64,000 nucleotides of DNA from a virus. Positions 6,375-45,077 of the stretch are shown here, piece after piece. The position numbers and the translations under genes are program-made. Positions within the stretch are counted from its first letter, which is position 1; the number at the start of each line of letters is the position of its first letter. Where the stretch lies: the UHGV virus genome UHGV-1364187. The stretch is one strand, 5' to 3'. The notes below the pieces were generated by a model. The model had not been told where the DNA came from. It did not search any database and worked only from the letters and a program-made list of their open reading frames with translations.

Positions 6375-7688
6375 CTAATATGGTTTATCTGTAGTTATTC
6401 TGTTTTTATTTAATTCTTCCATTATAATAGTTTGTTCATGTACAAATTCAGTATCTAAATATAAAGCTATATATGTAGTTATACCTTTAAAAGGTTCAGA
6501 ATAAGTTCCAATGCATGTTTCCCAGTCCATAGATACTTGTAGTTCTTTATCTGAATTAAATGTTTTTATATCTATAAACTCTCTAGGACTTATACCAAGT
6601 TTTAATGCTTGTCTTATAAGAGGAGTTACATGAATACTATCAAATAATTCTATAAACGGAATTTTTGGTATCTCATCTTGATCAAATTCTGCATAATCTA
6701 CGTTAAGATAATTATTCCATCCTTTTTCATTTACTGTAGGTATATGTAGTGTAGTTATTTCTCCCACAATAACAGTTTCTTCACTACCTTGAGATAATTT
6801 ATGAATAATCTCATGTTCTGTTCTAGAATAATATGCATACCATCTAGGTGCTGGAATCTTGACTCCTATATTAAAATCTATCATATATGAATCAGATACA
6901 TGATTTTTTGTTTGTCCATCATCAAGACTCATTCTCTCTGTTAGGTCTATATCTATTGAAAAATTTCTCATTCTAACAAAGAATTCATTAATACCATTCG
7001 TGCGTCTAAATTTATATAATATCGGTAATTCTGATTTGGAATTAAGGTATCTTACAAATTTAGCACATTCTGATACATCACCACTTTGTATATTAAATCC
7101 TACATCTTTAGCAAATTGAATCATTACATGTAATGGAATATGGAAATCTAAATCTATCTTGAATCTCCTCTTTGTTCCAATAGGTAATACAACACCAAGT
7201 CTTTCAAATAAATCTACTTGTTTTGATCTAGTATCAACTTTAATTTTTACATTATAATTCAATTCTACTAATTTAAGTCCTAGTGCTAAGAATAAATGTC
7301 TATCATAATCTTTTATGAATGATGTATCTAATCTTCCCATTTGCATTGCTAAATTTACACCAAATCTTACATCATTATGATCATTATTATTGAAATCATA
7401 ATTTATTCTTGGTGTAATAGCAATAGCTGGAGTTGGTTTACTTATAAAATTATAAGATTTATCCATTTTTCTATACTCATCCAATATATGTTTTTCATTA
7501 ATATATACTGTCTTAAAGTAATCTTTTGGTAATCCACTTAATATGAAATCTTTAATATATTCAGTTGCTATTGATTCTGTGTGGATTAATGATGGTGAAG
7601 CCATACTCATATTTAAATTTACTTCTTGTTTCTTTTTTAATATATCTGCAGGATTACATTTCTTTAGATTAGGATTTCTATTAATCAT
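6375..7688 (-). CDS. hypothetical protein (437 aa)
   Basis: RBS aggagtga. No recognisable motifs; I checked for RNAP motifs and found none. Confidence 0.5.
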   Translation of the reverse strand: MINRNPNLKKCNPADILKKKQEVNLNMSMASPSLIHTESIATEYIKDFILSGLPKDYFKTVYINEKHILDEYRKMDKSYNFISKPTPAIAITPRINYDFNNNDHNDVRFGVNLAMQMGRLDTSFIKDYDRHLFLALGLKLVELNYNVKIKVDTRSKQVDLFERLGVVLPIGTKRRFKIDLDFHIPLHVMIQFAKDVGFNIQSGDVSECAKFVRYLNSKSELPILYKFRRTNGINEFFVRMRNFSIDIDLTERMSLDDGQTKNHVSDSYMIDFNIGVKIPAPRWYAYYSRTEHEIIHKLSQGSEETVIVGEITTLHIPTVNEKGWNNYLNVDYAEFDQDEIPKIPFIELFDSIHVTPLIRQALKLGISPREFIDIKTFNSDKELQVSMDWETCIGTYSEPFKGITTYIALYLDTEFVHEQTIIMEELNKNRITTDKPY

Positions 7689-7715
7689 TATATCACTCCT
7701 TTATCATAAAAAATA

Positions 7716-7750
7716 AAAGCATTTACGTTAATGTTCCACGTAAATGCTTT
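7716..7750 (-). terminator. rho-independent terminator after beta-prime exon 2
   Basis: 12-bp stem aaagcatttacg/cgtaaatgcttt with T-runs on both strands. Confidence 0.6.
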
Positions 7751-7758
7751 TTATTATA

Positions 7759-8109
7759 TTAGAAGTGTTTCTGTTCTTTTATTCTCTTAATCTTCTCTAA
7801 TTGTTCTTGAGAATAGTTCTTTCTAGATAATCCAATAAGTGTATTAATATTAATAATAGTATCTCTTGAGTGGTTCATTGCTTTATTAAACATACCATTA
7901 TTTCTAGAGATATATAATGCATTTCTTGGATTAAGAACTTTAAATGCTTCTTCATAGAATGCTTTGTTATTAATTAGGAATATAGATAACGTATCACCAT
8001 CAAAATCTGCAGCCATAGTCTTTAAGATCTGTAATGGTAATGCCATTGTATATGTGTCTAATATTCCTACTACATGCATTTGTAAAATACTTCCATATGA
8101 AATTGTAGG
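7759..8109 (-). CDS. rpoC: multisubunit RNAP beta-prime N-terminal fragment, exon 2 (catalytic NADFDGD loop)
   Basis: PTISYGSILQMHVVGILDTYTMALPLQILKTMAADFDGDTLSIF...LNPRNALYISRNNG aligns with E. coli beta-prime APTLHRLGIQAFEP...AAYNADFDGDQMAVH...STNNILSPANGEP. The frame is open upstream as far as a stop codon at 8137..8139. Confidence 0.8.
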   Translation of the reverse strand, partial: PTISYGSILQMHVVGILDTYTMALPLQILKTMAADFDGDTLSIFLINNKAFYEEAFKVLNPRNALYISRNNGMFNKAMNHSRDTIININTLIGLSRKNYSQEQLEKIKRIKEQKHF

Positions 8110-8600
8110 CTCCGTCTTCACATAGAGTCGTGACTTCTATGCAGTTCTCTTATGAACTTCTATGAGTATTACTCATAAGGAGAGACTATATCTTCATCTT
8201 TTACTATTCTTATATTATTTCAAATATAAGATACTACTAGCAGTCAGATGCCTTGCACTTCGGATATACTATATCCTACTCTACTCACTTCGTCTATATC
8301 TAATTTATTAGATATACCTTATTTTTAACTAGATTACTAGTATATTAGCTTTCGATAGTCGTTGAACCTTCTCCTATATAATTTATATAAGAGCTTGGCT
8401 GCTGATTGGACATTGTTTGTTACTTGGCACGATACTTAGGCTCTCACCATATATCATCTTAATGATTATTTCTGTCTTTCGACTGCCATTCACGCTTACC
8501 TGTTACAGTTACGTTGTAGCTCATTAAGCATTAGCCCTTCCCAGACAAGTTCACAAGGTTTTTCTCCGTACATTTCTGTAGGGAGGACCCATCCACAAAT
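8110..8600 (-). ncRNA. group I self-splicing intron (491 nt, no ORF) inside the beta-prime gene
   Basis: The 5' exon ends in U (..AAU CGA CCU) and the intron ends in G (..GACGGAG). The intron 5' end (AUUUGUGGAUGGGUC) contains GGGUC, which can pair with the exon end GACCU to form P1 with a U.G wobble. An R-like element (GACUAUCGAAAG) lies near 8345-8360 and an S-like element (GAAGAUAUAGUCUC) near 8178-8190 on the minus strand. The upstream ORF reads through for 34 unrelated codons to a stop. The spliced junction restores the conserved ILINRP|PTISYG (E. coli LLNRAPTLHRLG). Confidence 0.75.
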
Positions 8601-9761
8601 AGGTCGATTTATTAAAATAGGTATACCTTGACCGTCATCTATTAAAGATTGAATAATATTTCTAACTCTTTGGTCTTCTTGAATAGTGGCATAATACCAA
8701 ATATTATGTGCTTCATCATAAGACATATTATAAGATTTTACTAAAACATTTATAATTCTCTGTTCTAATAATCCTACTAATGCAAAGTATGATAATTTTA
8801 CTTGGTCTACTTTTAATGTATCATCTGGAATGATTACACATCTAGAAGAGAAGTTAAATCTTCCTCCGAATACTCCTCTAAATATACCTTTCTTTCCAGA
8901 TAATATATTTTCAACTTCAGCATAAACTTTATTAAGTTTATATTGTAAATCGTATAATAATTGTAATTTAGGTTTCTTCTTTCTATGAATACGTAATGTA
9001 TTCATATTGATATCATGAACTAATTTTACAATCATATTATACAATCCATTAATATCGTTGAATACAAAGTTTCCACCATCAAGTTTGAATGGTCTTAATA
9101 GTGTCGTAAATATTGGTATAGAATGAGTAAATATCTTATCTTTATTCTCTAACAAATCAAGATAAGTATCAGTCTTAGCTTTCTTATTAGAAGAATTATT
9201 GTAATAATAATCTAAAACTGTTTCAAAGTTATCTCTTAACCATAATATACCTTTTCCTTTATATGGTTCATCTTTAACTTGTTTATTTTCTTCTATTGTA
9301 AATCCATCTTCATTCTTATTGTCTATTGGTTTTATGATATTATAAAGTTTCTCTGTTCCAATAATAGTCTCTAATTCTTTATATAGATTAGGATGGATTA
9401 TACAATATTCATCTTTCAATACTGTCCAACCAAATAAGTCATAATTATCATCAACAAACTTTACTTTAGTATTACATATAGGACATGTCATGCCATTATT
9501 AATTTTACCCATAGTGTAACCACATGAACATTTATATTTGTTAATGAACGGGTTAGAGTCATTTAATGTAGAACCAAATCTAGTACTAAAAATACCATTT
9601 GGTTCTTTTAAATCCTTCTTAATGTTTTGATGTTGAAAGATAATGAACCCGTTACCAGTACGAAGATCATTATCTTTCTCTTTATCCAAGTCAATTCTTT
9701 CTAGTAATGTTTCAACTTTAAATAAATTTCCAAGTTCATCTACAAGATGTGGATAATTCAT
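8601..9761 (-). CDS. rpoC: multisubunit RNAP beta-prime N-terminal fragment, exon 1 (Zn ribbon, clamp, lid)
   Basis: The Zn-binding motif CSCGY...CPIC matches the beta-prime N-terminal CxCGK..CxxC. IPIFTTLLRP matches LPVLPPDLRP, and GKKGIFRGVFGGRFNFSSRCVI matches [23 protein letters not shown]. RBS gaaggagatg. Confidence 0.8.
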
Positions 9762-9827
9762 ATTTATATCATCTCCTTCAATAATATAATATATAAGTTA
9801 ATAATAAGTTACATATACATTAATTTT

Positions 9828-10301
9828 CTAATGTATATGTAACTTATTATATTTATATTTATATTCTATAGACTTAGAATCTCTTTCTTGCTTCTTTTCT
9901 ATCCACTCTTGAACTTTATCTTTTATTTTATACTTGTTCACTAAACAACAGATTACATTATATGTGTCATTCATTGAATAGAAAAACCTAGATTTATAAT
10001 TATTATACAAATAAGATTTACTAACAAGTTGTTGAAATCTTGATAAATTATAAATACACTGTTTAAGACTATATTCACGTCTTGATATTCTTATTCTCGC
10101 TTTCTTTTCGATTTTATGTCTAAGTCTATATAAACATGTGTAAACATCACATATTTCTTCAGAAAGATGATATATATCAATTTCTTGTTCAGATAAGCAA
10201 TTTATCAATTCTGATAACTCTTCTTGCATCTTCATAAAAATAAAATCATCACCACTCATATCAGTGATACTATGTTGTAATTTTGTATCTATTAAAAACA
10301 T
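9828..10301 (-). CDS. hypothetical protein (157 aa)
   Basis: ORF immediately downstream of 10304..11236; probably co-transcribed with it. Confidence 0.45.
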   Translation of the reverse strand: MFLIDTKLQHSITDMSGDDFIFMKMQEELSELINCLSEQEIDIYHLSEEICDVYTCLYRLRHKIEKKARIRISRREYSLKQCIYNLSRFQQLVSKSYLYNNYKSRFFYSMNDTYNVICCLVNKYKIKDKVQEWIEKKQERDSKSIEYKYKYNKLHIH

Positions 10302-10303
10302 TT

Positions 10304-11236
10304 CTATTCACATCCTTTATCAAAATACTTTCCTTTATAATAATTGCCAATTTTTATTGTATCTAAATTATATTCTGTGCATTTTTTACCGACAGTCAAT
10401 CTAATATTTTTCTTATGTAAAAGTTCTTCTGTTATTCCGATAGAATTCATATCTTCTTCAAAGTTAGTAAATGTTAACCATCTTTCACATATAGTATGTT
10501 CACTACACCATTCAGTATTATATACCATATATATTAATCTTGACCATTTTATATATAGTCTATTTTTGTTTTTATCACTAATAACTCTTCCTGTAGATGC
10601 TATACCACCACATATGTTTTTATAAGTATGATCTATAACTTTTCCATTGTCCACACATCCAATATTATATTCTGTTTCATATCCAGATATTAAGAATTTT
10701 ATTTTACACATTGTTATTTTTGTTCCATTTTTATTACGTGTACTATATGTTGAAGTTACAATGAATTCTAATCCATCTTTACTTGTATGAATTGTGGATT
10801 CAACAGTATTTAATCTTTGTTTTGAATCTGAAATAGAACCATTTGTTATATTGCTTCTTGTGACATAATATATATTCTTAGATTCAATAAATTGTATTTT
10901 GTAATTACTACTTTGCGTATTATGTATCATCTTATATTTCTCATCCATATCCAATACTTTAAATTCTAATCCGTCATTATTTTTAAATATTTTACCTATA
11001 ATATTTGATTTGTTACATGGTCTATTGTATGTCTTATCTACTGCTAAATTATGCATTATTATATATCTTGATGCTTCGGTTTCATAATCAGTTTCTATAA
11101 ATCTTATATTATAATAATGATTATTATTTCCATCATATATACATCCAAGATGTTTTAATACAATAAATCTTCTTCCATATTTTCCTTCAAATTCTTTTCC
11201 AATGATATCGTTATACTCTACTACACTTCTTCCCAT
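10304..11236 (-). CDS. hypothetical protein with three tandem ~55-aa repeats; possibly DNA-binding or endonuclease-like
   Basis: Repeats GKEFEGKYGRRFIV..YNIRFIE, DGLEFKVLD..YKIQFIE and DGLEFIVTS..KIKFLISG. The start is taken at the internal ATG (MGRSVVEY) preceded by aaaggagagtg. Confidence 0.45.
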   Translation of the reverse strand: MGRSVVEYNDIIGKEFEGKYGRRFIVLKHLGCIYDGNNNHYYNIRFIETDYETEASRYIIMHNLAVDKTYNRPCNKSNIIGKIFKNNDGLEFKVLDMDEKYKMIHNTQSSNYKIQFIESKNIYYVTRSNITNGSISDSKQRLNTVESTIHTSKDGLEFIVTSTYSTRNKNGTKITMCKIKFLISGYETEYNIGCVDNGKVIDHTYKNICGGIASTGRVISDKNKNRLYIKWSRLIYMVYNTEWCSEHTICERWLTFTNFEEDMNSIGITEELLHKKNIRLTVGKKCTEYNLDTIKIGNYYKGKYFDKGCE

Positions 11237-11274
11237 TATAATACACTCTCCTTTAGTATTATTAAATATATACT

Positions 11275-11298
11275 CACATATATAATATATAATCAAAA
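11275..11298 (-). promoter_or_regulatory. conserved AT-rich phage promoter-like motif (copy E)
   Basis: The minus strand reads tttgattatatattatatatgtgagt, about 40 nt upstream of the ATG at 11236. Confidence 0.45.
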
Positions 11299-11338
11299 TG
11301 AATATTAGAATACCTTTTTTGGTATTCTAATATTCATT
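11297..11338 (-). terminator. strong hairpin terminator after the HNH gene
   Basis: 18-bp stem aatgaatattagaatacc/ggtattctaatattcatt with a T6 loop. Confidence 0.6.
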
Positions 11339-11478
11339 CTTTTCGTTCAAACAGCATATATATTTAGGAGATGATTTTTAATGGACTTAACTAACCCATT
11401 ACAAATATGTTGTATATATTATAAACTATTACTTTTTATATTTAGACAAATTAATAGATAGTATAGAATATATATATT

Positions 11479-12666
11479 CTATACTACATTTTTATGTGTT
11501 CTATATTTTACAATATCACTTATAGTACTAATATTATATCCAGTACTATATTTTATTTCAGTTAGTGTCATACCCTCTTGTTCATACATTCTTCTTATAT
11601 CTCTTACAATATCATCTGTTATACTTCTTCCAGGAGCATTGGATAAATCATATTGTTCATATATATCTCTATGTGCTCTACCGCTAGTAATATTCACAAT
11701 AGTTTTTCTATTTATATCAAGATGATGTGATATCATTGTTGGAGTATATCCATTGGAAAACAATATCATTATATTATGCACATCTTCATCTGTAATCTTA
11801 GTTGGAACATAAGCATTAGATAAATCGTATTGATTTCTAATATCTAAATGTTTCTTTCCACCATATACAATATTAGTTACAGTTTTTCTATTTAAATTTA
11901 ATTCATCTGCAATCTGATATGCTTGATACCCTTGAGAATATAATCTAAATATATCATGTAAAGTATCTTCTGGAAGTAATCTTGTAACTTGATCTAATTC
12001 TAATTCTTCATATACATCTTTATGGCTAGAACCACATGATATATTTCTTACATTAACATATGAAACTCCAGTTTTTTCTGCAATTTCTTTAAGAGATAAT
12101 GTTGTATCCTTAATAAGATTACCAACTTCATAAGCTTTCTCTTTAGATATACATATAGCTTCTACTTCTGGTCTTAATTCTTCATATGAATGATGAACAT
12201 TTTCTAATGGAGTAGCCCATTCAAGATTACATAACCAATTACACCATGTACAACCATTTATATGATTGACTTGATATTGTTCTGGATTTTCTATTGGAAG
12301 AAATGTCATCATTACTAATCTATGAACAAAGTATATATGTTTCTTTCCATCAAGACATGATAATCCAACTCGTAGATATCCTTTATCTGTAGATTGTTGT
12401 TGCATGAATACATTATTAAGTAATGAGAATATTCTTCCGTAATTACTTACCATATATCTTCCAGGAACAATTTCTTCTGAATTTATAAATACAAATATTT
12501 CATCTGGAGCCATAAGTGGGATATATGTATATTCTTGTTGATAATTTGAAAATTGTTCTGGTATATAATTTGGTGGTAGTTCTTTTCCAGTCTTAGAAAT
12601 ATATGCTGGAATTATTAAATTTTTGATTTCTTGTCCTTCTTTATACTCTTTGTTTTTGTAATACAT
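11479..12666 (-). CDS. free-standing HNH homing endonuclease (NUMOD4 + HNH_3 + C-terminal helix-turn-helix repeats)
   Basis: NUMOD4-like RYMVSNYGRIFS. HNH_3 motif VNHINGCTWCNWLCNLEWATPLENVHH. Four repeats of the NLNRKTVTNIVYGGKKH / DINRKTIVNITSGRAHRDIY type. RBS gaaaggatg. Confidence 0.85.
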   Translation of the reverse strand: MYYKNKEYKEGQEIKNLIIPAYISKTGKELPPNYIPEQFSNYQQEYTYIPLMAPDEIFVFINSEEIVPGRYMVSNYGRIFSLLNNVFMQQQSTDKGYLRVGLSCLDGKKHIYFVHRLVMMTFLPIENPEQYQVNHINGCTWCNWLCNLEWATPLENVHHSYEELRPEVEAICISKEKAYEVGNLIKDTTLSLKEIAEKTGVSYVNVRNISCGSSHKDVYEELELDQVTRLLPEDTLHDIFRLYSQGYQAYQIADELNLNRKTVTNIVYGGKKHLDIRNQYDLSNAYVPTKITDEDVHNIMILFSNGYTPTMISHHLDINRKTIVNITSGRAHRDIYEQYDLSNAPGRSITDDIVRDIRRMYEQEGMTLTEIKYSTGYNISTISDIVKYRTHKNVV

Positions 12667-12725
12667 TTAAATCATCCTTTCTATTTTTAGATTATTTTTT
12701 TGTTAGTGTAATATTAAAAAATAAA

Positions 12726-12750
12726 TATAAACTAGGAACACCCTAGTTTA
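12726..12750 (-). terminator. hairpin plus T-run overlapping the stop codon of the beta-prime middle fragment
   Basis: Stem aaactagg/cctagttt followed by atatttatttttt on the minus strand. Confidence 0.5.
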
Positions 12751-13978
12751 TATTTAATATTCCAAATGCATCATTTAACATATCAGTAATGTCAGTAGTT
12801 TTAACAACACTATTATGAAACGCTTTTAAGCTTCTTTGTTTGGTTGTTGAAGCGATTTTGCTCATAGCCATACCTATATGGGCTATACCTATTCTTCTAA
12901 ATAGACTACTACCACATACCTCACATATATCTTCACCTTCACATAATGCAGCGAATCTAAGATTAACAGTTTTATCTATAAATTGATTCTTTGTATCTGA
13001 AGTAATTTCAATTACTTTATCTCCTTGTTGGACAAAACAATACATATATTGTTTAATATTCTTCTTTGTTAATTTAACTCTAATTGTACGTTTCGTTTTA
13101 CAATCACTTCCCTTAGGAGAAATAGAAATATGTTGAAATCCACTGAATAATAATTTCTCCCAATATCCACCAATTTGAGTTTTGATAGCTCTCGCTGTTG
13201 CTCCAGGTGCAATAGAGTTAGCAAATATATGATAATCCTCTTTAGATATACCATCCATATAACATGATGTAGCTATATCATATTTACCTGTTACGTTATT
13301 ATATACAGCACCTTTCATCATACACATATTCTTTAAGTTATTTTCAATATTACCTCTGGCTTTACAATCAAAGATTTCCATCGCATCATCATCTTTTAAT
13401 ATTTCTTTTGTTTGTGCTATTAATTGATTAGAAATATCTTCTGCTACAACTTCATCACCATCTTCAAGAGCTTTCTTATTCTCTTTAATAAGTTTAGTCT
13501 TTAATGGCTTAAGTTTATCTGATAAAGATAATATAGCATCATCATAATGAGCTGCTAATACTGTAGTTAATCTCATTAGTATTTGTGACTTTAATAAGAA
13601 ATGTTTTAATGCATCTAATGGTACTTTATCTTCCAATCTAGCATATGTAATATCAGATACAATATCATTAAATACATCATCATCTACAGAATAATTTATA
13701 TACTTTTCTAATTCAAATAGTTCTTTCTCTATACATAGTCTATTAAATATCCATAACCCTACAGTAGTTGTAAATTCATTCTTATTTCTCTTTCCTTCAG
13801 GACCATAAGAATTTGGTGGAATTTTAATATAATTAAATGGTTCAAATCTTCTTTTATTGTTAAACTTTCCAAGTAATTCTATAATAAGACTTATAGTTAA
13901 ATCTTTTTCTTCTAAAGATAATAGATAATCTATATCTTCTTGTTTTGTTATAAACACACCATCTTTTACTTTAGGCAT
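12743..13978 (-). CDS. rpoC: multisubunit RNAP beta-prime middle fragment (funnel, bridge helix, trigger-loop helices); ends inside the trigger loop
   Basis: TTVGLWIF matches [28 protein letters not shown] matches [57 protein letters not shown] matches the bridge helix [53 protein letters not shown] matches trigger-loop helix 1 (IGEPGTQLTMRTFH), and [10 protein letters not shown] matches trigger-loop helix 2 (DITGGLPRVAELFEAR). The start is taken at MPKVK, which follows aaaggaga. Confidence 0.75.
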   Translation of the reverse strand: [411 protein letters not shown]

Positions 13979-14024
13979 ATTATAATCTCCTTTCATCTAA
14001 TTTATATTAATTAGATGTAAACAG

Positions 14025-14052
14025 ACAAAAAATAAAAGAGCAGAAACTAATC
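14025..14052 (-). terminator. hairpin terminator after gene 14069..14524
   Basis: Stem aaaagag/ctctttt followed by a T-run on the minus strand. Confidence 0.45.
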
Positions 14053-14068
14053 TACTCTTTTATATGTA

Positions 14069-14524
14069 TTATTCGATTACTAATTTAGATTTAACAATAG
14101 TAATTGCTAATTCTTTATCTTTAAAAATCATCGGTAAGATATCTTTACCATCATATACTCTAAAGTCAGGTCCACATAATTCTGTAACGATTCCTTTGAT
14201 TGCTGGAAGTATATACTTTTCTCTAGCAATATATCCATCATCGTAAGATTCAATCATCTTTACAATCTTTTGTCTTTGAATTGTATTTTCAACTTTACCA
14301 TTTGTTGGTAATTGTTTTACCAATTTCTTAATATCGATAAGTGTTTTAAGAGGATTAGTTCTAAATAATTCCTCTGTAATCTTTTCTGCTTCTGTTTCTT
14401 TAAATCCTTCTGGATTGAATAATGATACCTTTTTATTTGTTCTTTCTGTTTCCATAATTCTAATACCCTCCATAATTGCACCTAATAATTCTACTTCTTC
14501 TTGTGTGAATGCTTTTACTATCAT
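14069..14524 (-). CDS. hypothetical protein (151 aa)
   Basis: ORF only. Confidence 0.45.
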   Translation of the reverse strand: MIVKAFTQEEVELLGAIMEGIRIMETERTNKKVSLFNPEGFKETEAEKITEELFRTNPLKTLIDIKKLVKQLPTNGKVENTIQRQKIVKMIESYDDGYIAREKYILPAIKGIVTELCGPDFRVYDGKDILPMIFKDKELAITIVKSKLVIE

Positions 14525-15300
14525 TTTTAAACAACTCCTTTAATATTATTATTGTATTATTTACACTATTATAATATATAAGTGAAATATTAGACTTTTA
14601 CATAATATAATAACACACTAAGTCACATAGGGGATGAGCTTAGTGTGTTATTAATTTGGTAGATTGATGGTTAAGCAAGCAAAGTGGATTGTTTGCTAAA
14701 AAAATAGTGTTTTTTTGGAGTAAGACAATATTTGATATTACTTTGTATTTTGGGATTTGACTTAAGACAAATACTTGTCTCAAATATATGTTATTATATT
14801 TTAAAAGTTTAATATCCACCATAGATTTTACTCTATGGTGGATATACACACAAAAAAGGAAAGAAGAAAAAGAAAAAAAGTTTTAATATGGTTTACTAAT
14901 ATGTTATATTGTATAAAAAGATAAAAACCTATACTATTATAGTATAGGTTTTTACAAATAAATTTAAAAGGAGATTGCTTAATACAAAAAGACTTATATC
15001 CCGATGGATTATATATATATGTTTATAATAAAAAAATAAGATAAGCCATAATAGCTTATCTTATTTTTCAAAAGAATTGTAGAGTTAAAAAAACAGCTAA
15101 TTTAATATATAAAGGATTATTTATATGTTTATTAAAATTTAAACCTTAATAATCTCAGCTTGTATTATCATATTTTTATCTTCAGAATAATATATAATTA
15201 AAAAATTAGACCATACTATAAAAAGTATGGTCTAATTTAATATGTTTAGAACATTAATATAATAAAATAACGAAAAAATAAACTATAACCAGTAGAGTTC
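14525..15300. other. 776-bp non-coding region containing at least five perfect hairpins
   Basis: Hairpins at 14611-14650, 14812-14845, 14924-14953, 15035-15065 and 15205-15236, several flanked by T-runs on both strands. No convincing ORF; the ORF at 14640..14849 is low-complexity and looks spurious. Confidence 0.5.
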
Positions 15301-16137
15301 CTAATAGAAGCAGAGATAAGTTATATCAAGGCTCTTTGTATATTCGTTAAGTGGTTCGCTTGGAAAATGAAGAACCGTTAATGGTCTGATGGATTCATAA
15401 TATATATACCCATTAATTTCGTGTTTATACCCAGTTAATAATGAAATAGCATTAATTTTTGCAGTATCTAATCCAGTTGTAGATGCAAACCATTCTCTAC
15501 AATCATCTACTGTAATTTTCAATTTCAATTGAACAAATGATTCAATCTCTAAAGTATTAGTTGAATCAAATACATTAGCATCAATAGGAGTACCGTCAAC
15601 ATATCTTTGAATAAGTTCTGGTTCTGTATCAAATGCTTTAAAATAATAAGCAATTTTTCCATTAGTAAGTGCTCTACCAAAATATCTAGTTCTATCTAAA
15701 TCTGATAGATCATTAGGTGGAGTAATATATCTAAATGGAACTAAATCACTAGGTTTAATCCATTTTGAATAATCAACATCATATACTTGATGTTGTTCTT
15801 GTCCACATCCACCGACACCAACAGCAAATAGACAAACTACTTCATCTCTTCTAACTCCAGGTTCTGGGTTAGGAGTATTTAAAGTGTTTTCTAATCCCAA
15901 TACCGTATTATACGATGGTGTTCTTGTTGGCACATCAATATTATAATGTTTCATCATAGTAAATGCTGAACCTGATACAATGACTTTATTATGTAAGCCT
16001 TGATGTAATACATTTCCTAAACCATCTTTAATAGTGATTAATGATCCAGGACGTTGTATATTAGCTTTATCTGCATTACGAACAGCATCTGATAAAATTC
16101 GCATTTGTTCTTGTTGTTCATCTGTAGGAATAGCCAT
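15301..16137 (-). CDS. hypothetical protein (278 aa)
   Basis: RBS aaaggaggaatt upstream of the ATG. No motifs. Confidence 0.5.
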   Translation of the reverse strand: MAIPTDEQQEQMRILSDAVRNADKANIQRPGSLITIKDGLGNVLHQGLHNKVIVSGSAFTMMKHYNIDVPTRTPSYNTVLGLENTLNTPNPEPGVRRDEVVCLFAVGVGGCGQEQHQVYDVDYSKWIKPSDLVPFRYITPPNDLSDLDRTRYFGRALTNGKIAYYFKAFDTEPELIQRYVDGTPIDANVFDSTNTLEIESFVQLKLKITVDDCREWFASTTGLDTAKINAISLLTGYKHEINGYIYYESIRPLTVLHFPSEPLNEYTKSLDITYLCFY

Positions 16138-18753: not shown

Positions 18754-19416
18754 ATGAATGAATTTCCAGGAATAAAAATATTCGAAGGTATAAATCCAAC
18801 ATTAACTTCGCCTTATTCCCCATTTTCATTGTCTTTTTATCAAACAAGAAAAACATTGATTGATATAGATCTATATCAGCGATTTTTATCTAATGCTATA
18901 AAACAATTCAGGGGAACAGAAGTTTATAAACATTATAAAGCGTTCTTGATGGGATTAGGATTAGATAAGTCACAAATGCATTCTAATATAAATTCAGAAA
19001 TGGCTAATTTAGAAATGCATCATAATGTTCTTACAATATTTGATATAGCTATTATTCTTACTGAGCATACATTAAATCAATATGGATATATATCATCATT
19101 TGATTTAGTAAACATGCTTAGAAAAGAACATACCGAACATAGAGTACAACTTATCATGATTGATTTAACGACTCACCAATTATTTCATAATACTGGAGAA
19201 ATATATTTTCATCCAAATATGTGTGTTGGAAATTGGTGGGAATTCTTAGAATTATACAAAGATGGTGTAACACCAGATATAGCTAAAAAAGTTATAAAAT
19301 ATATAGATAGAGCTGAAGAGTTAGAAGGTTCTATTGATGGTAAGTATTCTGAACTTAGAAAAAATGTAAAAGATTGGAGTGTTTATAATGAGTCCTTCAA
19401 GCATAATGAATTTTAG
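18754..19416 (+). CDS. hypothetical protein (220 aa)
   Basis: RBS gaaagaggtg. Confidence 0.5.
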   Translation: MNEFPGIKIFEGINPTLTSPYSPFSLSFYQTRKTLIDIDLYQRFLSNAIKQFRGTEVYKHYKAFLMGLGLDKSQMHSNINSEMANLEMHHNVLTIFDIAIILTEHTLNQYGYISSFDLVNMLRKEHTEHRVQLIMIDLTTHQLFHNTGEIYFHPNMCVGNWWEFLELYKDGVTPDIAKKVIKYIDRAEELEGSIDGKYSELRKNVKDWSVYNESFKHNEF

Positions 19417-34725: not shown

Positions 34726-35041
34726 AAGATGCAAAGAAAGAGGATTTAGTGGTAAATGTAAAATAAGTAAAGATAGAATTATATACTTTGAAGGTAAATT
34801 ACCAGCTGTAAGTGAATTACAGCTTAAATATTTCATAATATGTAGTATCAAAAAGATTTTTAATGTAAGTAATATTATTCATCCAGAAATGCATTCTGCA
34901 ACATATGATTCATCATCATTTGTTGCTAGAAAAGTAGCAAAAGATGGTATATTCTATTATGAAGATGAAGAATATACTAAATTTATAAAATCTGATACAA
35001 TTTTAGAGGAGGATGATGAAAATGGTGAGATGCCTTTCTAA
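34718..35041 (+). CDS. hypothetical protein (107 aa)
   Basis: Overlapping start with the preceding gene. Confidence 0.45.
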   Translation: MSKRCKERGFSGKCKISKDRIIYFEGKLPAVSELQLKYFIICSIKKIFNVSNIIHPEMHSATYDSSSFVARKVAKDGIFYYEDEEYTKFIKSDTILEEDDENGEMPF

Positions 35042-35686: not shown

Positions 35687-38600
35687 TTACATTTGGTCTA
35701 AATATTTCCATTTAATTCCCGCTAAATCTTTTGCATGTCTGTCTAATTCTATCATAGCTTTATTAATAGCACCAACAATAATAGGTGCTCCTGTCATACG
35801 TGCTAATGTAGATGCAACACATAATATAGTATGGATTTTTTCATCTGGTCTATATGATGATGTTGGTTCTTTTCCTTTTTCTAATACAGTTCTACATACA
35901 CCCTTTACAGCAGAATAATCTACAATTTTATCACCAACTGCTAATTTGTCTTCATATTCTAGATATATCTCTATAAGAATTCCGCTTTCAATATTTTTAA
36001 GTTTTCCAACAACAGGCAATGCTTCTGTAGATTCTAATCCATAAATATAATCTATTCCATATTTCTTTTGAGCAGACTTTATTTTTTTAATAGGTTTTTC
36101 AATTTCAGTTACAAACTTCTTAAGAGAATCTGATAGTTCATCTATTTCACATGTTCTATATACTTTGATATCACTTATGATACCATTAGCTTTAGCTTTA
36201 ATTGTAAATCTTCCAAGATCAGATACAAGTTCGACATCTCCAGATAAAGATTTCATTAAAGCATTAACATCTTCTTCATCATATGCGTCTTGAAATACTA
36301 ATAATGTATCTCCTTCTTGCACATAATCCCCTTTCTTTACAATATCTAATAATATAGCATTTTTATCCATAGATACATCTTTCTTAACGTCTATATATGA
36401 CGTTAATGCATCTGATAAATATTCTGAAACGATTGTACTATCTTCAAATCCTTCTTCTGTAGACATAATAGCTACTTTAGTTAATAATCCCATTGAGTAT
36501 GTAAGATTATCATTAGCACCATAAGCATGGTCAAAACTAAATTTATCATAGGCTATAATATCATTAGCTTTGAATTTATCTCCAACTTTTAGTTCTGTAC
36601 TAAGTTGTAATGTGATATAGAATCCACCATCTGAATTTTTTCTAATATTGTTTCTTAAATCTATAAAATCATGAGTTCCATCAGAATAAGTTACAATCAT
36701 ATAGTCATCTGTAATAGTCTCAACTGTACCATTCTTTTTAGCTTTAAATGCAAAGTTATTTGTTACCATATATGGTAAAGCTTGATCTGCACCGTTTGTA
36801 ATTAAAGATGGGAATGATATTTTTGTTGGTAATTGATGTTTTGATGTTTGGATAAAGTCCATTGCTGAACGCATAGCATCATTACGTGTTACACCATATG
36901 GAGTTAATGCTTCTTGGATAGAAAATGAACTAGTAATATTCATATCATCTCTATTTTTAGTGGTTTTAATATACCCCCTAATAGTATCAACATTCATATT
37001 TATTGTAGCCTGCCTTACAATACCAGAGTTACCAGCGAAGTTTGTAGCACATGCTAATATATTAATCATAGAAGGATCATATGAACGTTTATCAGCTTTA
37101 TATGCTCTATCTGCATTCATACCAGAATGACCTTTAGTTGATAATGCATTAATAGCTTCTAACTCTCCAATAGGAGTAGTATATGAGTAATCACCAGCAG
37201 TATTAGCCATTAATACTTCATCTATTACTGCAGATTGTTTCATTGATATAGTGGCATTCTTAAATCCTTTTTTAATTTTATTTTTATAATCATTATAAGC
37301 ATATGCCAATTCCTTATAAGCATAAGCTGCCACTATTTCATTACTACGATATCTATATGCATCCATGTTAGTATGATTACTATACTGTGTTGATGCTAGT
37401 AAATCATTTGCATATAACAATATGTCTGTAAATTCTGTAGGTAATCCGTAATGAATCAATGATTGCAATGTGATATAATCAATCATACAATCATAGAAGT
37501 TTTCTATACCATCAGATAATTTAGCTCTAGGACCATAATTATCTAAGATTTCTATCCACATAGATTTTGAATCTATATCTCCAATAGAATATATTTCTGT
37601 AGTGACATCTTTAATTCCATTTAGTAATAGATTTGAACTGTTAGTACATTCAAAAACTATATATCCATCTGAAAATCTTATAAAATCTGCATTATCTGCT
37701 TTTTTGTCACTTTGATCAAGTTTTTCTTTTATAGTATATTTAATATTAGCTTTTTTAAGCATTTCAGTTAAACCAATTTGATAGCATATGATGATAGCTA
37801 GTGGAATTTGAGTATTAAGAATACTAGCTCTAGAATAAATATACTTCTTACCTTTAGTTGTATTATTGTATAATTCTCTAAGTTCATTATCGTCTCCAAT
37901 TAATAAGTCCAATATTTTATTAGGGACATCTGGAAATGAACTATAGATAACTTCTTTAGACGTTTTGTGATATGCAATAGGAATTTTTCCTTGTGGAACT
38001 TTCTCTATATTATATTTAGTTCTAATCTCTTTTTGATTAAGATATACTATAACATCTTTAGTTTCTAACTTATTGTACTGAGAAGCTAAATATTCATATG
38101 TATATGGTACATCATAAATATTATTAGCTAATGTACAATCTCCTATAGTAGATTTTATCTTATCTGTTTTGTTTATAGTTTTTATCAATCTGTCAGTAAC
38201 AGAATCTGATTTTTGTCCATATCTTTTAATGAAGATTTTATTGTAGTTTGATACAATTTGAACAGTATCTGGGTCTGTTTTTGATATTGGTAACAATAAT
38301 AATTGACCATTAATAGTCTTATCATTACCTTTAATAATAAGAAACTTATTATCTTTAAACTTAGGTACGTCGAATTTAAATTGAAATCTTTTACCGAACG
38401 AATCTTCGCAAAATACAGTATATGTATCTTTATAATCTTCTGACGTTGATGAATCTTCAATTTTTATATCTCTTACTGCAACAGGATAAGATGATTTTGT
38501 AAGAAGTTCTGTAATACAGTTAATTATATCTTTATTTACATCATAATCGTTTTCGATATTCATATATTTTAGATTAGACCATTCCTCTTCATTTACAGTG

Positions 38601-40024
38601 TCAATTCTTGTTGATAAATTAGTTGATGTGAGTTCTTTATCAGTATCAGGACCAAGAATATCATCTAGTTTAATATTGTTTATTTCTTTTTGTCTTAGTT
38701 CTTTATTAAGATTTTCTAAACGGTCTAATCGTTGTTTGCTTATTTTACCACTATTATCTTGCTCAGCTGCCATTTTCAATATTAATTCTTTAAACTCTGG
38801 ATCGTTCTCTAATTCTTCCATAGTAGCTTCTATATCTGAAGATTTTTCTGCAGCATTTTCAATTCTATTTAATAATTCTTTTTCATCTATAGAACCATCT
38901 TCTCCAGTAAGAGAATTGATCTTGATTTTAGCCTTACCAGTTTCTAGTTTAGATAGAATAGCCATTACAATAGATTTTGTTGATGAATTATTATTAGCCA
39001 TGCTATCTTGTTCTTCTGGTGGAATTGGCAAATTGTTTTCAATGATATTAATAAACTTATTAAATTTGATATAAGTTTCATTGTTGATATCATCTACTAC
39101 TAATTTGAATTGAGTATTACCATTAGTAAATACAAATTCTTCACCAGATAGAAGTTCTTTAATCTTATCTGGATTTCTTCTTAATAATCTTGAGAATAAT
39201 GATATAGGATTGATATTTTTCATATCTAATGTAGAATTCACACCTTCTGGAAGATTCCTATACCAACCATCAACAGGTATATATGACACTTTATTATATG
39301 AATCAAATCTTTCATCTTTAATAAATCTATGAAGTAGTTCTAAGTATAGATATATACCTTTCATATTACTCATATAATTATTTTTAAAGAAATTTTCATT
39401 ATAATAAAAGAAGTCTACATACATATTACGTCTTCTATATTTGTCCATATAAAGATATGCGTATTTGATAGATTTACATTCTTTCTTAATCTTATCATAT
39501 ACCAATACTACATCTTTTGGTGTTTTAAATCTTTCTCTATATAGTAATTGTTTTAAGATTTTATTGTATTTTGAAGATGATAGAATATTACTATTATCTT
39601 CTGCTTCTAGTAAAGAATTTAGTTTATCATTGTTAATGATTGTAATGCTAGATTCATCCATAATATAATCAATTCCAAATTCATTCATAGCTTCTAGTAA
39701 ACCTTCTTTAGTTTGAGTATATAGATATCTATGTTTCTCTACATCTAATACCGTTTCGTTGATTATACTATCTTCTTCTAATATAATATCATCACTGTTT
39801 GATAAGAATGATTCTTGAGATATAATAAACGAAATATCTTTCTCAATATAATATGAGTCATATTGTTTATTACAATCTTTTGTATTGATAATCTTTATAG
39901 ATTCATCAATATTTGGTGTTATTAAAAACATAATACTATCTTTGAGTTTATTTTTCGTATTGAACGGAAAATAAACAGGTTTATTGTATAATTTCATATT
40001 CTTTAAATCTTTATATAAAATCAT
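35687..40024 (-). CDS. rpoB: multisubunit RNAP beta subunit, N-terminal fragment (lacks the C-terminal ~250 aa), with a ~170-aa charged low-complexity insertion
   Basis: [19 protein letters not shown]...[22 protein letters not shown] matches E. coli beta GDKMAGRHGNKGVISKI...[36 protein letters not shown] matches [32 protein letters not shown] matches RVCPIETPEGPNIGLI. The ORF ends about 35 aa after the GDK/KGV motif, so the GGQRFGEMEVWALE region is absent. RBS taggaggt. Confidence 0.7.
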   Translation of the reverse strand: [1445 protein letters not shown]

Positions 40025-43919: not shown

Positions 43920-45077
43920 CAAGATGACTTAGCCGTGTTAGATAGAAATATCTAATATGATTATCGGGGAAATTCGGTAGAGGTCTAAGTAAGATTATCA
44001 ATTAAAAAGAAATGATGATATTTATGAATTATAATAAAACTGAAATTGAAAGATTATATTTTGAAGAAAATATGACATATGATCAAATATCTGAAATTGT
44101 AGGATGTTGTAAATCTACTATAGGAAATATTATTAGATCAAATCCAAACTATAAAAAGAAATCACAAACACTATATAGTAATCCATTATTAGATGAAAAT
44201 TATTTTGAAATAATAGATACAGAAGCAAAAGCTTATATATTGGGACTTATGATAACAGACGGGAATGTTTGTTATTATGGTGATGGATATCGTATTAGAT
44301 TACAATTAAAATATGAAGATTCTTATATTTTAGAATTCTTTAAAAATCAGATTCACTGTTCCAATAAACTTATTGTTGATAAGCGAGATGGTTCTATTGC
44401 ATTTAGTATAAAATCAGAAAAGATGTTTTATGATTTATCTAAATATGGAGTAGTTCCTAATAAAACTTTAAATAATTATGTTCCACCAAATATACATCCA
44501 ATGCTAATGCCTCATTTAATAAGAGGAATATTTGATGGTGATGGTTGGATATCAAAATCGTTTGATAAAAATGGAAAGAAACATATAGCTATTGGTATTT
44601 GTGGAAATGAAAATTTTCTTCAACAATTCAGGATATATTAGTAATAAATGCTCGAGTAAATATGAATATTATAAATTCTTATAGCTCAATTAATGAAGCT
44701 CCATTATACCAAACAATGTGGTGTTCTATTGGAGATATTATTAGATTATATAGTTATTTATACATAGGTGCTAATATATATCTATTTAGAAAATATCATA
44801 CTATAATTGATATAATTTTATATGAAAATACCGAGAGGGCTTTAATCGAAAGTCTTTGTAACGCATAGGAGTTGAACGTTATGATAGTAAAAATACTCCC
44901 AAGAGTCTCCGACACAATATACTATAGGTATATTTGAGGTGGAAATTGCTCACCACCAAACCTAACGTTAAACGAGGGTGAATATATATGCTAGGCTGGA
45001 TTGGAAATGACCAATCGATGAAAATGAGGGAAACCTCCAGAGGTCTAGATAAAAAGCTAGACGTTAATAACAGTCCG
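43920..45077 (+). ncRNA. group I intron 1 in nrdD (~1.16 kb), carrying a LAGLIDADG homing-endonuclease ORF
   Basis: It interrupts conserved HSRAGQ|VPFSS. A heptamer GGTCAAG is shared at both exon ends, so the exact junction is ambiguous. R-like CCGAGAGGGC..AUCGAAAG and UCCGACAC elements resemble those of intron 2. Confidence 0.7.
44012..44641 (+). CDS. intron-encoded LAGLIDADG homing endonuclease (double-motif)
   Basis: Motif 1 AYILGLMITDGNV and motif 2 LIRGIFDGDGWI. Located wholly inside nrdD intron 1. Confidence 0.8.
   Translation: MMIFMNYNKTEIERLYFEENMTYDQISEIVGCCKSTIGNIIRSNPNYKKKSQTLYSNPLLDENYFEIIDTEAKAYILGLMITDGNVCYYGDGYRIRLQLKYEDSYILEFFKNQIHCSNKLIVDKRDGSIAFSIKSEKMFYDLSKYGVVPNKTLNNYVPPNIHPMLMPHLIRGIFDGDGWISKSFDKNGKKHIAIGICGNENFLQQFRIY

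What the first reader, a model, noticed from the sequence alone, without database searches (positions are those of the whole stretch)
12743..13978. Beta-prime is split in an unusual way: the middle piece ends inside the trigger loop and lies upstream of the N-terminal piece
ORF 13978..12743 covers beta-prime from the TTVGR region through the bridge helix and both trigger-loop helices (..KAFH.., [10 protein letters not shown]), then stops. The roughly 300 C-terminal residues (jaw/cleft, region H) are not in this window. On the same strand this middle piece is transcribed before the N-terminal piece (9761..7759); the N-terminal piece ends at about E. coli residue 500, just before where the middle piece begins. 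Between the two lie a free-standing HNH homing endonuclease and a two-gene cassette with its own promoter. So beta-prime is split into at least three polypeptides, or belongs to two different RNAPs, or the C-terminal domain is dispensable. None of these matches the simple N/C split I expect for phiKZ-type RNAPs.
Basis: partly seen in the sequence, partly recalled or inferred. Interest (0 to 1): 0.65.

Follow-up and report, generated by a model that had tools for sequence, protein, structure and literature searches.

The report
Jumbo-phage virion RNAP β′ middle subunit
The ORF is the normal "middle" piece of the three-piece β′ subunit of the virion-packaged RNA polymerase already described for AR9/phiKZ-type giant phages, and the N-terminal piece next to it belongs to the phage's second, non-virion polymerase, so the arrangement is ordinary for this kind of phage.

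Summary
ORF 13978..12743 (−) encodes a 411-aa β′ fragment running from the "TTVG" region through the bridge helix, a 4-Cys zinc site and the trigger loop. It stops 23 residues after the catalytic "FH". More than 400 homologues have the same length (about 400–420 aa), so the stop is not a sequencing error.

The arrangement is not unusual. The ORF is the reciprocal best match of Bacillus phage AR9 gp264, the "Mid-β′" subunit of the virion RNA polymerase (vRNAP). In AR9-, SPN3US- and phiKZ-type jumbo phages this enzyme is already known to have β′ split into N, Mid and C polypeptides.

The N-terminal piece downstream (9761..7759) belongs to a different enzyme. It is the orthologue of AR9 gp270, the N-β′ subunit of the non-virion RNAP.

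The order Mid-β′, then variable cargo genes, then nvRNAP N-β′ is conserved in three of the four related metagenomic phages examined. A vRNAP β-like subunit lies at 35687..40024. The small C-β′ gene (AR9 gp125 / SPN3US gp244 family) is not in the window or within 10 kb of either edge, and I could not locate it in the rest of the contig.

Verdict: a new member of a known kind, of low interest.

The parts
12743..13978 (-). Gene for the virion-RNAP Mid-β′ subunit (411 aa; an in-frame ATG at 13996 would give 417 aa). It covers β′ from the region after the double-psi β-barrel through the bridge helix (about aa 252–287), a 4-Cys zinc site (C299/C352/C358/C361) and the trigger loop (H394 of KAFH; helices 374–391 and 403–411).
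   Evidence: (phrog_2962, E 8e-56, aligned to profile positions 89–425 of 433).
12722..12756 (-). Terminator-like hairpin followed by a T-run, overlapping the stop codon of the Mid-β′ gene. It suggests the gene is its own transcription unit.
   Evidence: 6 terminator-like sites in 7.2 kb against 0.7 expected.
14032..14063 (-). Terminator-like hairpin between the upstream 151-aa gene and the Mid-β′ gene.
11479..12666 (-). Free-standing HNH/NUMOD4 homing endonuclease with several helix-turn-helix modules. It is absent at this position in the relatives L003, L005, L139, L140 and L141, and it is unrelated to the homing endonuclease that follows AR9 g264.
9828..11292 (-). Two-gene cargo cassette: a promoter-like TTATATATTAT motif (11292..11282), a 310-aa repeat-containing ORF of unknown family (ATG 11236..10304) and a 157-aa MazG-like ORF (10301..9828). 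A hairpin at 11340..11295 precedes it. It is not conserved in L003.
   Evidence: (phrog_2245, weak).
9786..9796 (-). AR9-early-promoter-like motif TTATATATTAT, 25 nt upstream of the nvRNAP N-β′ start codon and just after a hairpin (9849..9802).
   Evidence: 10 copies against 1.96 expected; AR9 early consensus from PMC5312081.
8601..9761 (-). Exon 1 of the non-virion RNAP N-β′ gene (387 codons, ending ...GIPILINRP).
   Evidence: (phrog_2987, E 8e-40).
8110..8600 (-). ORF-less group I intron (491 nt, 36% GC against about 27% around it). P1 pairs exon GACCU with intron GGGUC, with a U·G pair at the splice site, and the last base is G.
   Evidence: RF00028, 40.4 bits, E 6e-9, whole model; below the gathering score of 50; homologous segments in annotated introns of AR9 and MarsHill and in an intron-like gap of the Thomasclavelia phage TR-TP1 nrdD.
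7759..8109 (-). Exon 2 of the nvRNAP N-β′ gene (116 aa, PTISYGS...AADFDGD...), followed by a terminator hairpin at about 7703–7761. The spliced product is 503 aa.
   Evidence: (PF00623, weak).
35687..40024 (-). 1445-aa virion-RNAP β-like subunit, the orthologue of AR9 gp189 and the MarsHill 'viral RNA polymerase beta subunit'. It is a partner of the Mid-β′ subunit in the same enzyme.
   Evidence: (phrog_3148, E 1.5e-147).

Best explanation
The window comes from an uncultivated AT-rich jumbo phage (256.5-kb contig) of the AR9/PBS1–phiKZ type, which encodes two multisubunit RNA polymerases.

**What ORF 13978..12743 is.** It is the Mid-β′ subunit of the virion-packaged polymerase (vRNAP). It supplies the bridge helix, the second zinc site and the whole trigger loop. 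It must assemble with a separately encoded N-β′ (catalytic DFDGD loop), a small C-β′ of about 245 aa (jaw, clamp and region H) and two β pieces. One β piece is at 35687..40024.

**What the downstream N-terminal gene is.** The N-terminal β′ gene 2.9 kb downstream on the same strand is not its partner. It is the N-β′ subunit of the non-virion polymerase. An early-type promoter probably expresses it, read by the injected vRNAP. It needs a group I intron spliced out to give a 503-aa protein.

**What lies between them.** The interval between the two genes is a variable cargo slot. Here it holds a free-standing HNH homing endonuclease and a two-gene cassette.

**Shown:** homology, orthology, conserved stop, gene order in relatives, intron anatomy.

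**Inferred:** packaging into the virion, assembly with the other pieces, the timing of transcription, and self-splicing.
For: **Orthology to the vRNAP Mid-β′**
- tblastn to AR9 g264, annotated 'virion RNAP subunit': E 6e-58 over 95% of the query; the reverse search gives E 1e-62. It is the only place hit in each AR9-like genome.
- AR9 vRNAP β′ = gp145/gp264/gp125; nvRNAP = gp270/gp154/gp105/gp089/gp226 (PMC5312081).
- The three-piece vRNAP β′ is described in PMC7598289, PMC5105663 (SPN3US gp42, β′M, 431 aa; gp244, β′C, 240 aa) and the MarsHill preprint.
- PHROG phrog_2962 (profile length 433) scores E 8e-56. The nvRNAP-size phrog_3015 scores only 3e-8.

**Conserved length and end point**
-. 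AR9 gp264 ends 18 residues after FH, the window protein 23 residues after it.
- About 230–240 residues of bacterial β′ lie beyond the aligned end. AR9 nvRNAP C-β′ (631 aa) extends about 215 residues beyond it. Both figures fit the size of C-β′.

**The N-terminal piece is nvRNAP**
- It hits AR9 g270 and the 'non-viral RNA polymerase beta-prime' genes of Staphylococcus jumbo phages.
- The spliced protein against AR9 g270 exon 1 gives E 2e-36. Against AR9 g145 it gives only E 0.1.

**Separate transcription units**
- Hairpin terminators flank the Mid-β′ gene.
- The TTATATATTAT motif lies upstream of nvRNAP N-β′ and of the cassette, but not upstream of Mid-β′. In AR9, nvRNAP genes have early promoters and vRNAP genes are late.

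**Conserved gene order**
- 837-aa gene, 278-aa gene, Mid-β′, 1–6 unrelated genes, intact nvRNAP N-β′ (501–538 aa), 430-aa gene in L003, L139 and L141.
- AR9 also keeps g264 and g270 within 3.4 kb of each other.
Against: - The cognate vRNAP N-β′ and C-β′ genes were not found in the roughly 84 kb of the contig that I could read.
- Database and IMG/VR searches with C-β′ profiles did not reach a contig shown to carry this clade's Mid-β′. The full five-piece vRNAP is therefore inferred for this genome, not shown.
- No virion proteomics or transcript data exist for this phage.
- The promoter assignment rests on resemblance to the AR9 early consensus.
- The intron scores below Rfam's gathering threshold, and the exact splice junction (RP|PT) is rule-based. 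Intron-less relatives have RNPT at that position.
Confidence: 0.9

Rival explanations
1. One polymerase with a permuted gene order: the 411-aa middle piece and the downstream N-terminal piece are subunits of the same RNAP, encoded Mid before N on one operon.
For: Same strand, 2.9 kb apart, and the order is conserved in three relatives. The N piece ends soon after the DFDGD loop, roughly where a middle piece would begin.
Against: - Each piece has a different AR9 orthologue belonging to a different enzyme.
- Terminator hairpins and a separate promoter-like motif lie between the two genes.
- In Staphylococcus phage MarsHill the two orthologues are about 159 kb apart.
- The nvRNAP C-β′ of this group of phages is a single chain of about 630 aa (7s00_D).
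Confidence: 0.04
2. This clade has lost, or replaced with an unrelated protein, the C-terminal β′ module, so its vRNAP works with a β′ that ends at the trigger loop.
For: No C-β′ homologue was found in the window, in 10 kb beyond each edge, or in the 20-kb loci of relatives. No C-β′-bearing contig could be tied to the clade.
Against: - Only about one third of the contig could be read.
- In AR9, g125 lies about 120 kb from g264, so distance alone explains the miss.
- The family has 983 representative clusters.
- The Mid-β′ ends at the same point as in phages that do have C-β′.
Confidence: 0.05
3. The stop at 12743 is an artefact or marks an intron. On this view the HNH gene sits inside an intron and the β′ reading frame resumes downstream.
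For: A homing endonuclease gene starts 76 nt after the stop. RNAP genes of AR9-like phages are often interrupted by introns.
Against: - The stop position is conserved in more than 400 homologues, including relatives with no endonuclease downstream.
- No ORF downstream shows β′ C-terminal homology.
- A terminator hairpin overlaps the stop.
- Rfam finds no intron in 9800–14200.
Confidence: 0.01

Closest known systems
Bacillus phage AR9 gp264 (RefSeq BI022_gp263), virion RNAP Mid-β′; orthologues in PBS1, vB_BpuM-BpSp, Listeria LPJP1, Staphylococcus MarsHill/PALS_2 and Yersinia phiR1-37 g231
   Same: - About 32% identity over 95% of the length, and reciprocal best hit.
- Same length class (401 against 411 aa).
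- Same end point a few residues after the trigger-loop FH.
- In AR9 a homing endonuclease gene also follows the stop codon, and the nvRNAP N-β′ gene lies within a few kb.
   Different: - Only about 32% identical.
- The downstream endonuclease is unrelated.
- In AR9 the nvRNAP N-β′ gene is on the opposite strand, and its intron sits at a different site, after the DYDGK motif, and carries an HNH ORF.
SPN3US gp42 (β′M, 431 aa) / phiKZ gp80, with SPN3US gp244 / phiKZ gp176 as β′C (Thomas et al. 2016, PMC5105663)
   Same: The same three-piece logic for vRNAP β′. The window protein matches phrog_2962 (profile length 433) to within 8 positions of its end, and tblastn reaches Pseudomonas, Aeromonas, Vibrio and Erwinia phiKZ-like phages at about 23% identity.
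   Different: Much more distant in sequence. Those phages have thymine DNA and form a nucleus. I did not check directly that SPN3US gp42 belongs to phrog_2962.
AR9 nvRNAP C-β′ (gp154; PDB 7S00/7S01 chain D, 631 aa) and phiKZ nvRNAP gp74
   Same: Same fold over the bridge helix, zinc site and trigger loop (Foldseek probability 1.00; profile E 1.5e-8 over residues 181–405).
   Different: The non-virion subunit continues for about 215 more residues as one chain, whereas the window protein stops after the trigger loop. It is a paralogue, not the orthologue.
Cellular split β′ subunits: cyanobacterial/plastid γ(β′)/β″ and archaeal A′/A″
   Same: These are natural precedents for β′ encoded in pieces. 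The split between N-β′ and the next piece coincides with the cyanobacterial split after the double-psi β-barrel (PMC7598289). Cyanobacterial and plastid β″ chains match the window protein from near their N-termini.
   Different: The review describes no cellular split that coincides with the second cut after the trigger loop. The archaeal A′ chain matches through the bridge helix near its C-terminus (4qiw_A residues 804–858 of 906), so the archaeal cut lies before the trigger loop, not after it.

Membership tests
Jumbo-phage virion RNAP Mid-β′ (AR9 gp264 / SPN3US gp42 / phiKZ gp80) | Homology to the β′ segment from after the double-psi β-barrel through the bridge helix to the trigger loop | tested here: met
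   The family profile matches bacterial β′ at E about 3e-15, aligned to 8i23_D residues 629–948. The AF2 model matches β′ chains at probability 1.00. The invariant residues include the 4-Cys site and the trigger-loop F393/H394.
Jumbo-phage virion RNAP Mid-β′ (AR9 gp264 / SPN3US gp42 / phiKZ gp80) | Orthology (reciprocal best hit) to a characterised family member rather than to the nvRNAP paralogue | tested here: met
   Window to AR9: the only hit is g264, E 6e-58. AR9 g264 to window: 13978..12788, E 1e-62. phrog_2962 scores 8e-56 against 3e-8 for phrog_3015.
Jumbo-phage virion RNAP Mid-β′ (AR9 gp264 / SPN3US gp42 / phiKZ gp80) | A polypeptide of about 400–430 aa that ends just after the trigger loop and lacks the jaw and region H | tested here: met
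   411 aa. The homologues listed are nearly all 397–425 aa. The C-termini of five relatives and of AR9 gp264 align.
Jumbo-phage virion RNAP Mid-β′ (AR9 gp264 / SPN3US gp42 / phiKZ gp80) | Companion vRNAP genes in the same genome (N-β′, C-β′, two β pieces) | tested here: inconclusive
   A β-like piece is present at 35687..40024. Orthologues of N-β′ (AR9 gp145) and C-β′ (AR9 gp125) were not found in the roughly 84 kb readable out of 256.5 kb.
Jumbo-phage virion RNAP Mid-β′ (AR9 gp264 / SPN3US gp42 / phiKZ gp80) | The protein is packaged in the virion and expressed late | not testable with these tools
   The only indirect evidence is that no early-promoter-like motif lies upstream, and hairpins flank the gene.
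Jumbo-phage non-virion RNAP N-β′ (AR9 gp270) — the neighbouring 'N-terminal piece' | Orthology to nvRNAP N-β′ and presence of the catalytic Asp loop | tested here: met
   Hits AR9 g270 and the Staphylococcus-phage 'non-viral RNAP β′' genes. The spliced protein gives E 2e-36 against AR9 g270 and E 0.1 against AR9 g145. AADFDGD lies in exon 2; PF00623 is weak, 20.4 bits against a cut-off of 25.3.
Group I intron (Rfam RF00028) | P1 helix with a U·G pair at the 5′ splice site, terminal G, and removal restores the reading frame | tested here: met
   GACCU/GGGUC pairing with U8601·G, and the last base, 8110, is G. The joined exons give a 503-aa protein colinear with intron-less homologues of 501–538 aa.
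Group I intron (Rfam RF00028) | Match to the covariance model at the curated gathering score | tested here: not met
   40.4 bits against a gathering score of 50. The E-value is 6e-9 and all 253 model positions are aligned when only 531 nt are searched. The whole-window scans missed it. Its core segments are homologous to annotated introns of AR9 and MarsHill.
Group I intron (Rfam RF00028) | Self-splicing activity | not testable with these tools
   No RNA data.
HNH homing endonuclease (free-standing) | HNH catalytic motif plus a NUMOD-type DNA-binding module, encoded outside any host gene | tested here: met
   PF13392 at 35.1 bits (cut-off 24.8) and PF07463 at 30.8 bits (cut-off 23.4). The gene lies between the Mid-β′ stop and the cassette and is absent from relatives.

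The most novel reading that the evidence does not exclude
This abundant, uncultivated clade of AT-rich jumbo phages has no recognisable C-β′ (gp125/gp244-type) subunit. Its virion RNA polymerase would then either run with a β′ that ends at the trigger loop or use an unrelated protein for the jaw and clamp module. My evidence does not exclude this, because the C-β′ gene was not found in any sequence I could tie to the clade.
Probability: 0.05. Interest if true: 0.55.

Novelty: new member of a known kind. Interest (0 to 1): 0.12.

Why it matters
It matters little as a discovery. The N/Mid/C split of vRNAP β′ and the coexistence of two split RNAPs in one jumbo phage have been in the literature since 2016–2020.

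The practical value is in annotation.
- The window can be labelled with confidence: vRNAP Mid-β′, vRNAP β, and an intron-containing nvRNAP N-β′.
- More than 400 metagenomic proteins, nearly all unnamed or called only 'hypothetical protein' in public collections, can inherit the Mid-β′ name.
- The case shows that Rfam's default filters miss this family of phage group I introns in long queries.
- The variable cargo slot between Mid-β′ and nvRNAP N-β′, and the repeated parking of unrelated homing endonucleases right after the Mid-β′ stop in AR9 and here, are small data points for the published idea that mobile elements shaped these gene splits.

Tried and rejected
**Sequencing error or read-through at the stop.** Rejected, because the length is conserved.

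**The HNH gene is part of an intron that splits β′.** Rejected.

**The 278-aa ORF 15301..16137 is the missing C-β′.** I suspected this because its AR9 orthologue, BI022_gp258, is a 244-aa virion protein. Rejected: it shows no similarity to SPN3US gp244 or to any PDB chain, and AR9's C-β′ is gp125.

**The 1445-aa ORF is the vRNAP N-β′.** Rejected: it is the orthologue of the vRNAP β subunit, AR9 gp189.

**A regex search for a region-H-like motif in all ORFs.** It found nothing.

**The search for the C-β′ gene.** None of these located it:
- phmmer and HMM searches of the window, its flanks and relatives' loci;
- two word-indexed database searches;
- one exhaustive profile search: 983 hits, but without genomic context;
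- six IMG/VR scans with C-β′ queries (one more failed before scanning) and one with a Mid-β′ query (P0043) to test for shared contigs, plus two cluster look-ups aimed at finding a contig that carries both the Mid-β′ and the C-β′ of the clade. No contig names overlapped.

**A natural Mid–C fusion as a 'Rosetta stone'.** P0266 (633 aa) carries the C-β′ domain, but its N-terminal part is not Mid-β′. The longer fusions (P0263, P0264, P0269) were not examined.

**Whole-window Rfam scans.** They gave no intron; only the 531-nt query did.

**The plain σ70 promoter scan.** It was no better than shuffled sequence.
Full report
**What is in the sequence**

The second ATG, at 13978, is preceded by AAAGGAG and is the start used in the public gene call (411 aa, P0001). 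The finding's coordinates are therefore right.

The window is 25–33% G+C. It belongs to a 256,505-bp metagenomic contig, ENA ERZ27229639 k119_250412, and window base 1 corresponds to contig base 166,991.

**Is it β′, and where does it end?**

- Pfam finds nothing, and single-sequence phmmer against PDB is only marginal (E about 3e-3).
- The protein has 401 homologues. Of the 120 best that are listed, nearly all are 397–425 aa.
- A profile built from 60 of them matches bacterial β′ at E about 3e-15. It aligns to Clostridium thermocellum β′ residues 629–948, ending in '...LTMRTFHTGGVAGEDI'.
- Invariant columns include D298-C299-x-T301, C352, C358 and C361, plus F393-H394. From memory of the bacterial enzyme, I read the four cysteines as the second β′ zinc site and F393-H394 as the trigger-loop His.
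- The AlphaFold model (mean pLDDT 85) shows the bridge helix at 252–287 and two terminal helices at 374–391 and 403–411.
- Foldseek matches bacterial β′ chains and AR9 non-virion RNAP chain D (7s01_D, 631 aa) at probability 1.00.
- After FH come seven residues and then the 16-residue helix [16 protein letters not shown]. I compared this by hand, from memory of the bacterial sequence, with trigger helix 2 (DITxGLPRVxELFEAR); the two have the same length. On that reading the protein contains the whole trigger loop and stops at its C-terminal end, rather than 'inside' it.
- About 230–240 residues of a bacterial β′, and about 215 residues of AR9 nvRNAP C-β′, lie beyond that point.
- The stop is a conserved family feature. 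Five relatives and AR9 gp264 all end 15–23 residues after KAFH(D/N).

**Which protein is it?**

- tblastn against 50,697 phage genomes hits 77 jumbo phages. The best are AR9, PBS1 and their relatives, at 32% identity over 95% of the query (E 6e-58).
- The AR9 gene under the hit is annotated 'virion RNAP subunit'. The reverse search returns the window ORF (E 1e-62).
- The AR9 transcriptome paper states that AR9 virions carry five polypeptides that together equal β and β′. These are gp189/gp078 for β and gp145/gp264/gp125 for β′. The non-virion enzyme is gp270, gp154, gp105, gp089 and gp226 (PMC5312081).
- The 2020 review draws the vRNAP core as N-β′, Mid-β′, C-β′, N-β and C-β (PMC7598289, section 5 and Fig. 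3).
- The missing C-terminal piece was identified in 2016 as SPN3US gp244 (240 aa), next to β′M gp42 (431 aa) (PMC5105663).
- The Staphylococcus jumbo-phage preprint describes the same arrangement.
- PHROGs agrees. phrog_2962 (profile length 433) scores E 8e-56 and is aligned to within 8 positions of the profile end. The nvRNAP-sized phrog_3015 scores only 3e-8.

The ORF is therefore an ordinary vRNAP Mid-β′.

**The 'N-terminal piece'**

- It is two ORFs, 9761..8496 and 8121..7759. An intron-less homologue of 538 aa in a related 244-kb contig (L003) is colinear with both. Its junction, GIPILINRNPTIAYGS, lies where the window reads ...ILINRP / ...PTISYGS.
- Splicing 8601|8109 gives a 503-aa protein.
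- The 491-nt insert is 36% G+C. It forms a P1 helix in which exon GACCU pairs with GGGUC, with U·G at the splice site, and it ends in G.
- Its core segments match three known intervening sequences. These are the annotated intron of the MarsHill vRNAP β gene, the introns of AR9 g145 and g270, and the intron-like gap between the two nrdD pieces of Thomasclavelia phage TR-TP1.
- Rfam RF00028 aligns over all 253 model positions at 40.4 bits (E 6e-9) when only 531 nt are given. This is below the gathering score of 50, and the match was lost to the filters in the longer scans.
- The exon product matches AR9 g270 and the 'non-viral RNA polymerase beta-prime' genes of Staphylococcus phages (E 2e-36 when spliced). 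It matches AR9 vRNAP N-β′ g145 only at E 0.1.
- It is therefore the N-β′ of the other polymerase, the non-virion one.
- AR9's own g270 intron is at a different codon, after the DYDGK motif, and carries an HNH ORF.

**Context**

- Terminator-like hairpins are six-fold or more enriched in 7500–14700: 6 found against 0.7 expected. They bracket the Mid-β′ gene (14063..14032 and 12756..12722, the latter overlapping the stop), the cassette and the N-β′ gene.
- The 11-mer TTATATATTAT occurs 10 times against 1.96 expected. By my reading, each copy lies in or at the edge of an intergenic stretch and points toward a downstream gene. It resembles the AR9 early (vRNAP) promoter AAATATATATTAT.
- Copies of this motif lie upstream of the nvRNAP N-β′ gene (9796..9786) and of the two-gene cassette (11292..11282), but not upstream of Mid-β′ or the HNH gene. 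This fits the AR9 pattern of early or continuous nvRNAP genes and late vRNAP genes. It is an inference, not a measurement.
- The HNH/NUMOD4 endonuclease passes Pfam's cut-offs. It is absent from relatives, and it is unrelated to the endonuclease that follows AR9 g264.
- Across L003, L139 and L141 one backbone is conserved. It runs 837-aa virion protein, 278-aa virion protein, Mid-β′, 1–6 unrelated genes, intact nvRNAP N-β′ (501–538 aa), and a roughly 430-aa gene.
- L005 and L140 lack this linkage. AR9 keeps the two genes 3.4 kb apart on opposite strands. In MarsHill they are far apart.
- The adjacency is therefore an inherited neighbourhood with a variable cargo slot, not an operon for one enzyme.

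**Other RNAP pieces**

- The 1445-aa ORF 35687..40024 is the vRNAP β-like subunit (phrog_3148, E 1.5e-147). Its best places are AR9 gp189 and the MarsHill 'viral RNA polymerase beta subunit'.
- AR9 gp145 (vRNAP N-β′) has no orthologue in the window.
- For C-β′ I took AR9 gp125 and its homologues, which include genes annotated 'viral RNA polymerase beta-prime subunit' in Madawaska and Machias. I built profiles from them.
- These profiles recover SPN3US gp244 at E 4e-5 and 2e-7. This confirms independently that the families are related.
- They give nothing in the window, in the 10 kb beyond either edge (L103, L104), or in the loci of five relatives.
- An exhaustive profile search shows the family is large: 983 representative clusters at E ≤ 1e-3. 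It occurs on many 200–270-kb viral contigs.
- I could not show one on a contig that also carries this clade's Mid-β′. About 172 kb of the source contig was out of reach.

**Verdict**

The first is shown for AR9-type phages and inferred for this genome. The claim that this departs from phiKZ-type RNAPs is wrong, because the N/Mid/C split of the virion enzyme is the published norm.
- This is a new, divergent member (about 32% identical to AR9's) of a known family, from an abundant uncultivated clade with more than 200 IMG/VR contigs.
- The only open point is where this genome's C-β′ and vRNAP N-β′ lie. A simple HMM scan of the full contig would settle it.

Noticed in passing
window 8110-8600 (−): An ORF-less 491-nt group I intron interrupts the nvRNAP N-β′ gene at LINRP|PT. 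Rfam misses it in 64-kb and 6.7-kb scans and finds it (40.4 bits, E 6e-9, below the gathering score of 50) only when 531 nt are given. Its core segments recur in introns of AR9 g145 and g270 and of the MarsHill vRNAP β gene, and in the intron-like gap of the Thomasclavelia phage TR-TP1 nrdD gene.
   Followed up: yes
window 42996-46649 (+): The anaerobic ribonucleotide reductase gene nrdD is in three pieces: Pfam NRDD positions 1–156, 155–252 and 264–562. Two intervening sequences separate them. The first carries an endonuclease ORF (44012..44641; phrog_4645, weak LAGLIDADG_3). The second is about 300 nt with no ORF. These are probably two more introns.
   Followed up: partly
window, 10 sites: 5152, 9786, 11282, 14571, 15187, 24499, 26547, 28307 (−); 30672, 34046 (+): TTATATATTAT occurs 10 times against 1.96 expected. 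By my reading, each copy lies in or at the edge of an intergenic stretch and points toward a downstream gene. Several copies extend to (C/T)AATTATATATTATATATATGA. The motif resembles the AR9/MarsHill early (vRNAP) promoter.
   Followed up: partly
window 9762-12742; L003 11225-14166; L139 11204-12055; L141 11249-11953: The interval between the vRNAP Mid-β′ gene and the nvRNAP N-β′ gene is a variable cargo slot. It holds 1–6 unrelated small genes in relatives; here it holds an HNH endonuclease, a 310-aa repeat protein and a MazG-like protein. Unrelated homing endonucleases sit directly after the Mid-β′ stop both here and in AR9.
   Followed up: partly
window 10304-11236 (−): A 310-aa ORF with about three internal repeats (G[KR]xF...Y(N/K)IxFIE-type) has no Pfam or PHROG match. 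It may be a DNA-binding or homing-endonuclease-like protein.
   Followed up: no
window 49558-59625 (+): A 3355-aa ORF has precomputed Pfam hits to Peptidase_C39_2 and NLPC_P60. It is probably a giant virion-associated cell-wall hydrolase or a tape-measure-like protein.
   Followed up: no
window 35013-35549 (+), next to the vRNAP β gene: A small HNH endonuclease ORF (phrog_959, E 2e-6) abuts the 3′ end of the vRNAP β-like gene on the opposite strand. It is another mobile nuclease parked beside an RNAP gene.
   Followed up: no
proteins P0240, P0263, P0264, P0266, P0269, P0305: Some members of the C-β′ (AR9 gp125 / SPN3US gp244) family are the C-terminal domain of much longer proteins (568–1558 aa). 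The N-terminal part of P0266 is not Mid-β′. The others might be natural fusions with Mid-β′ or N-β′, or gene-call artefacts.
   Followed up: partly
L005 1-9300 (relative contig ERZ27319695 k141_120178): In a 262-kb relative the Mid-β′ gene sits next to a block of four or five radical-SAM/Fer4_12 genes and is not linked to nvRNAP N-β′.
   Followed up: no
window 18754-19416 (+) and 27118-27891 (−): Two paralogous ORFs both match phrog_12252 (unknown function; E 4e-20 and 4e-42).
   Followed up: no
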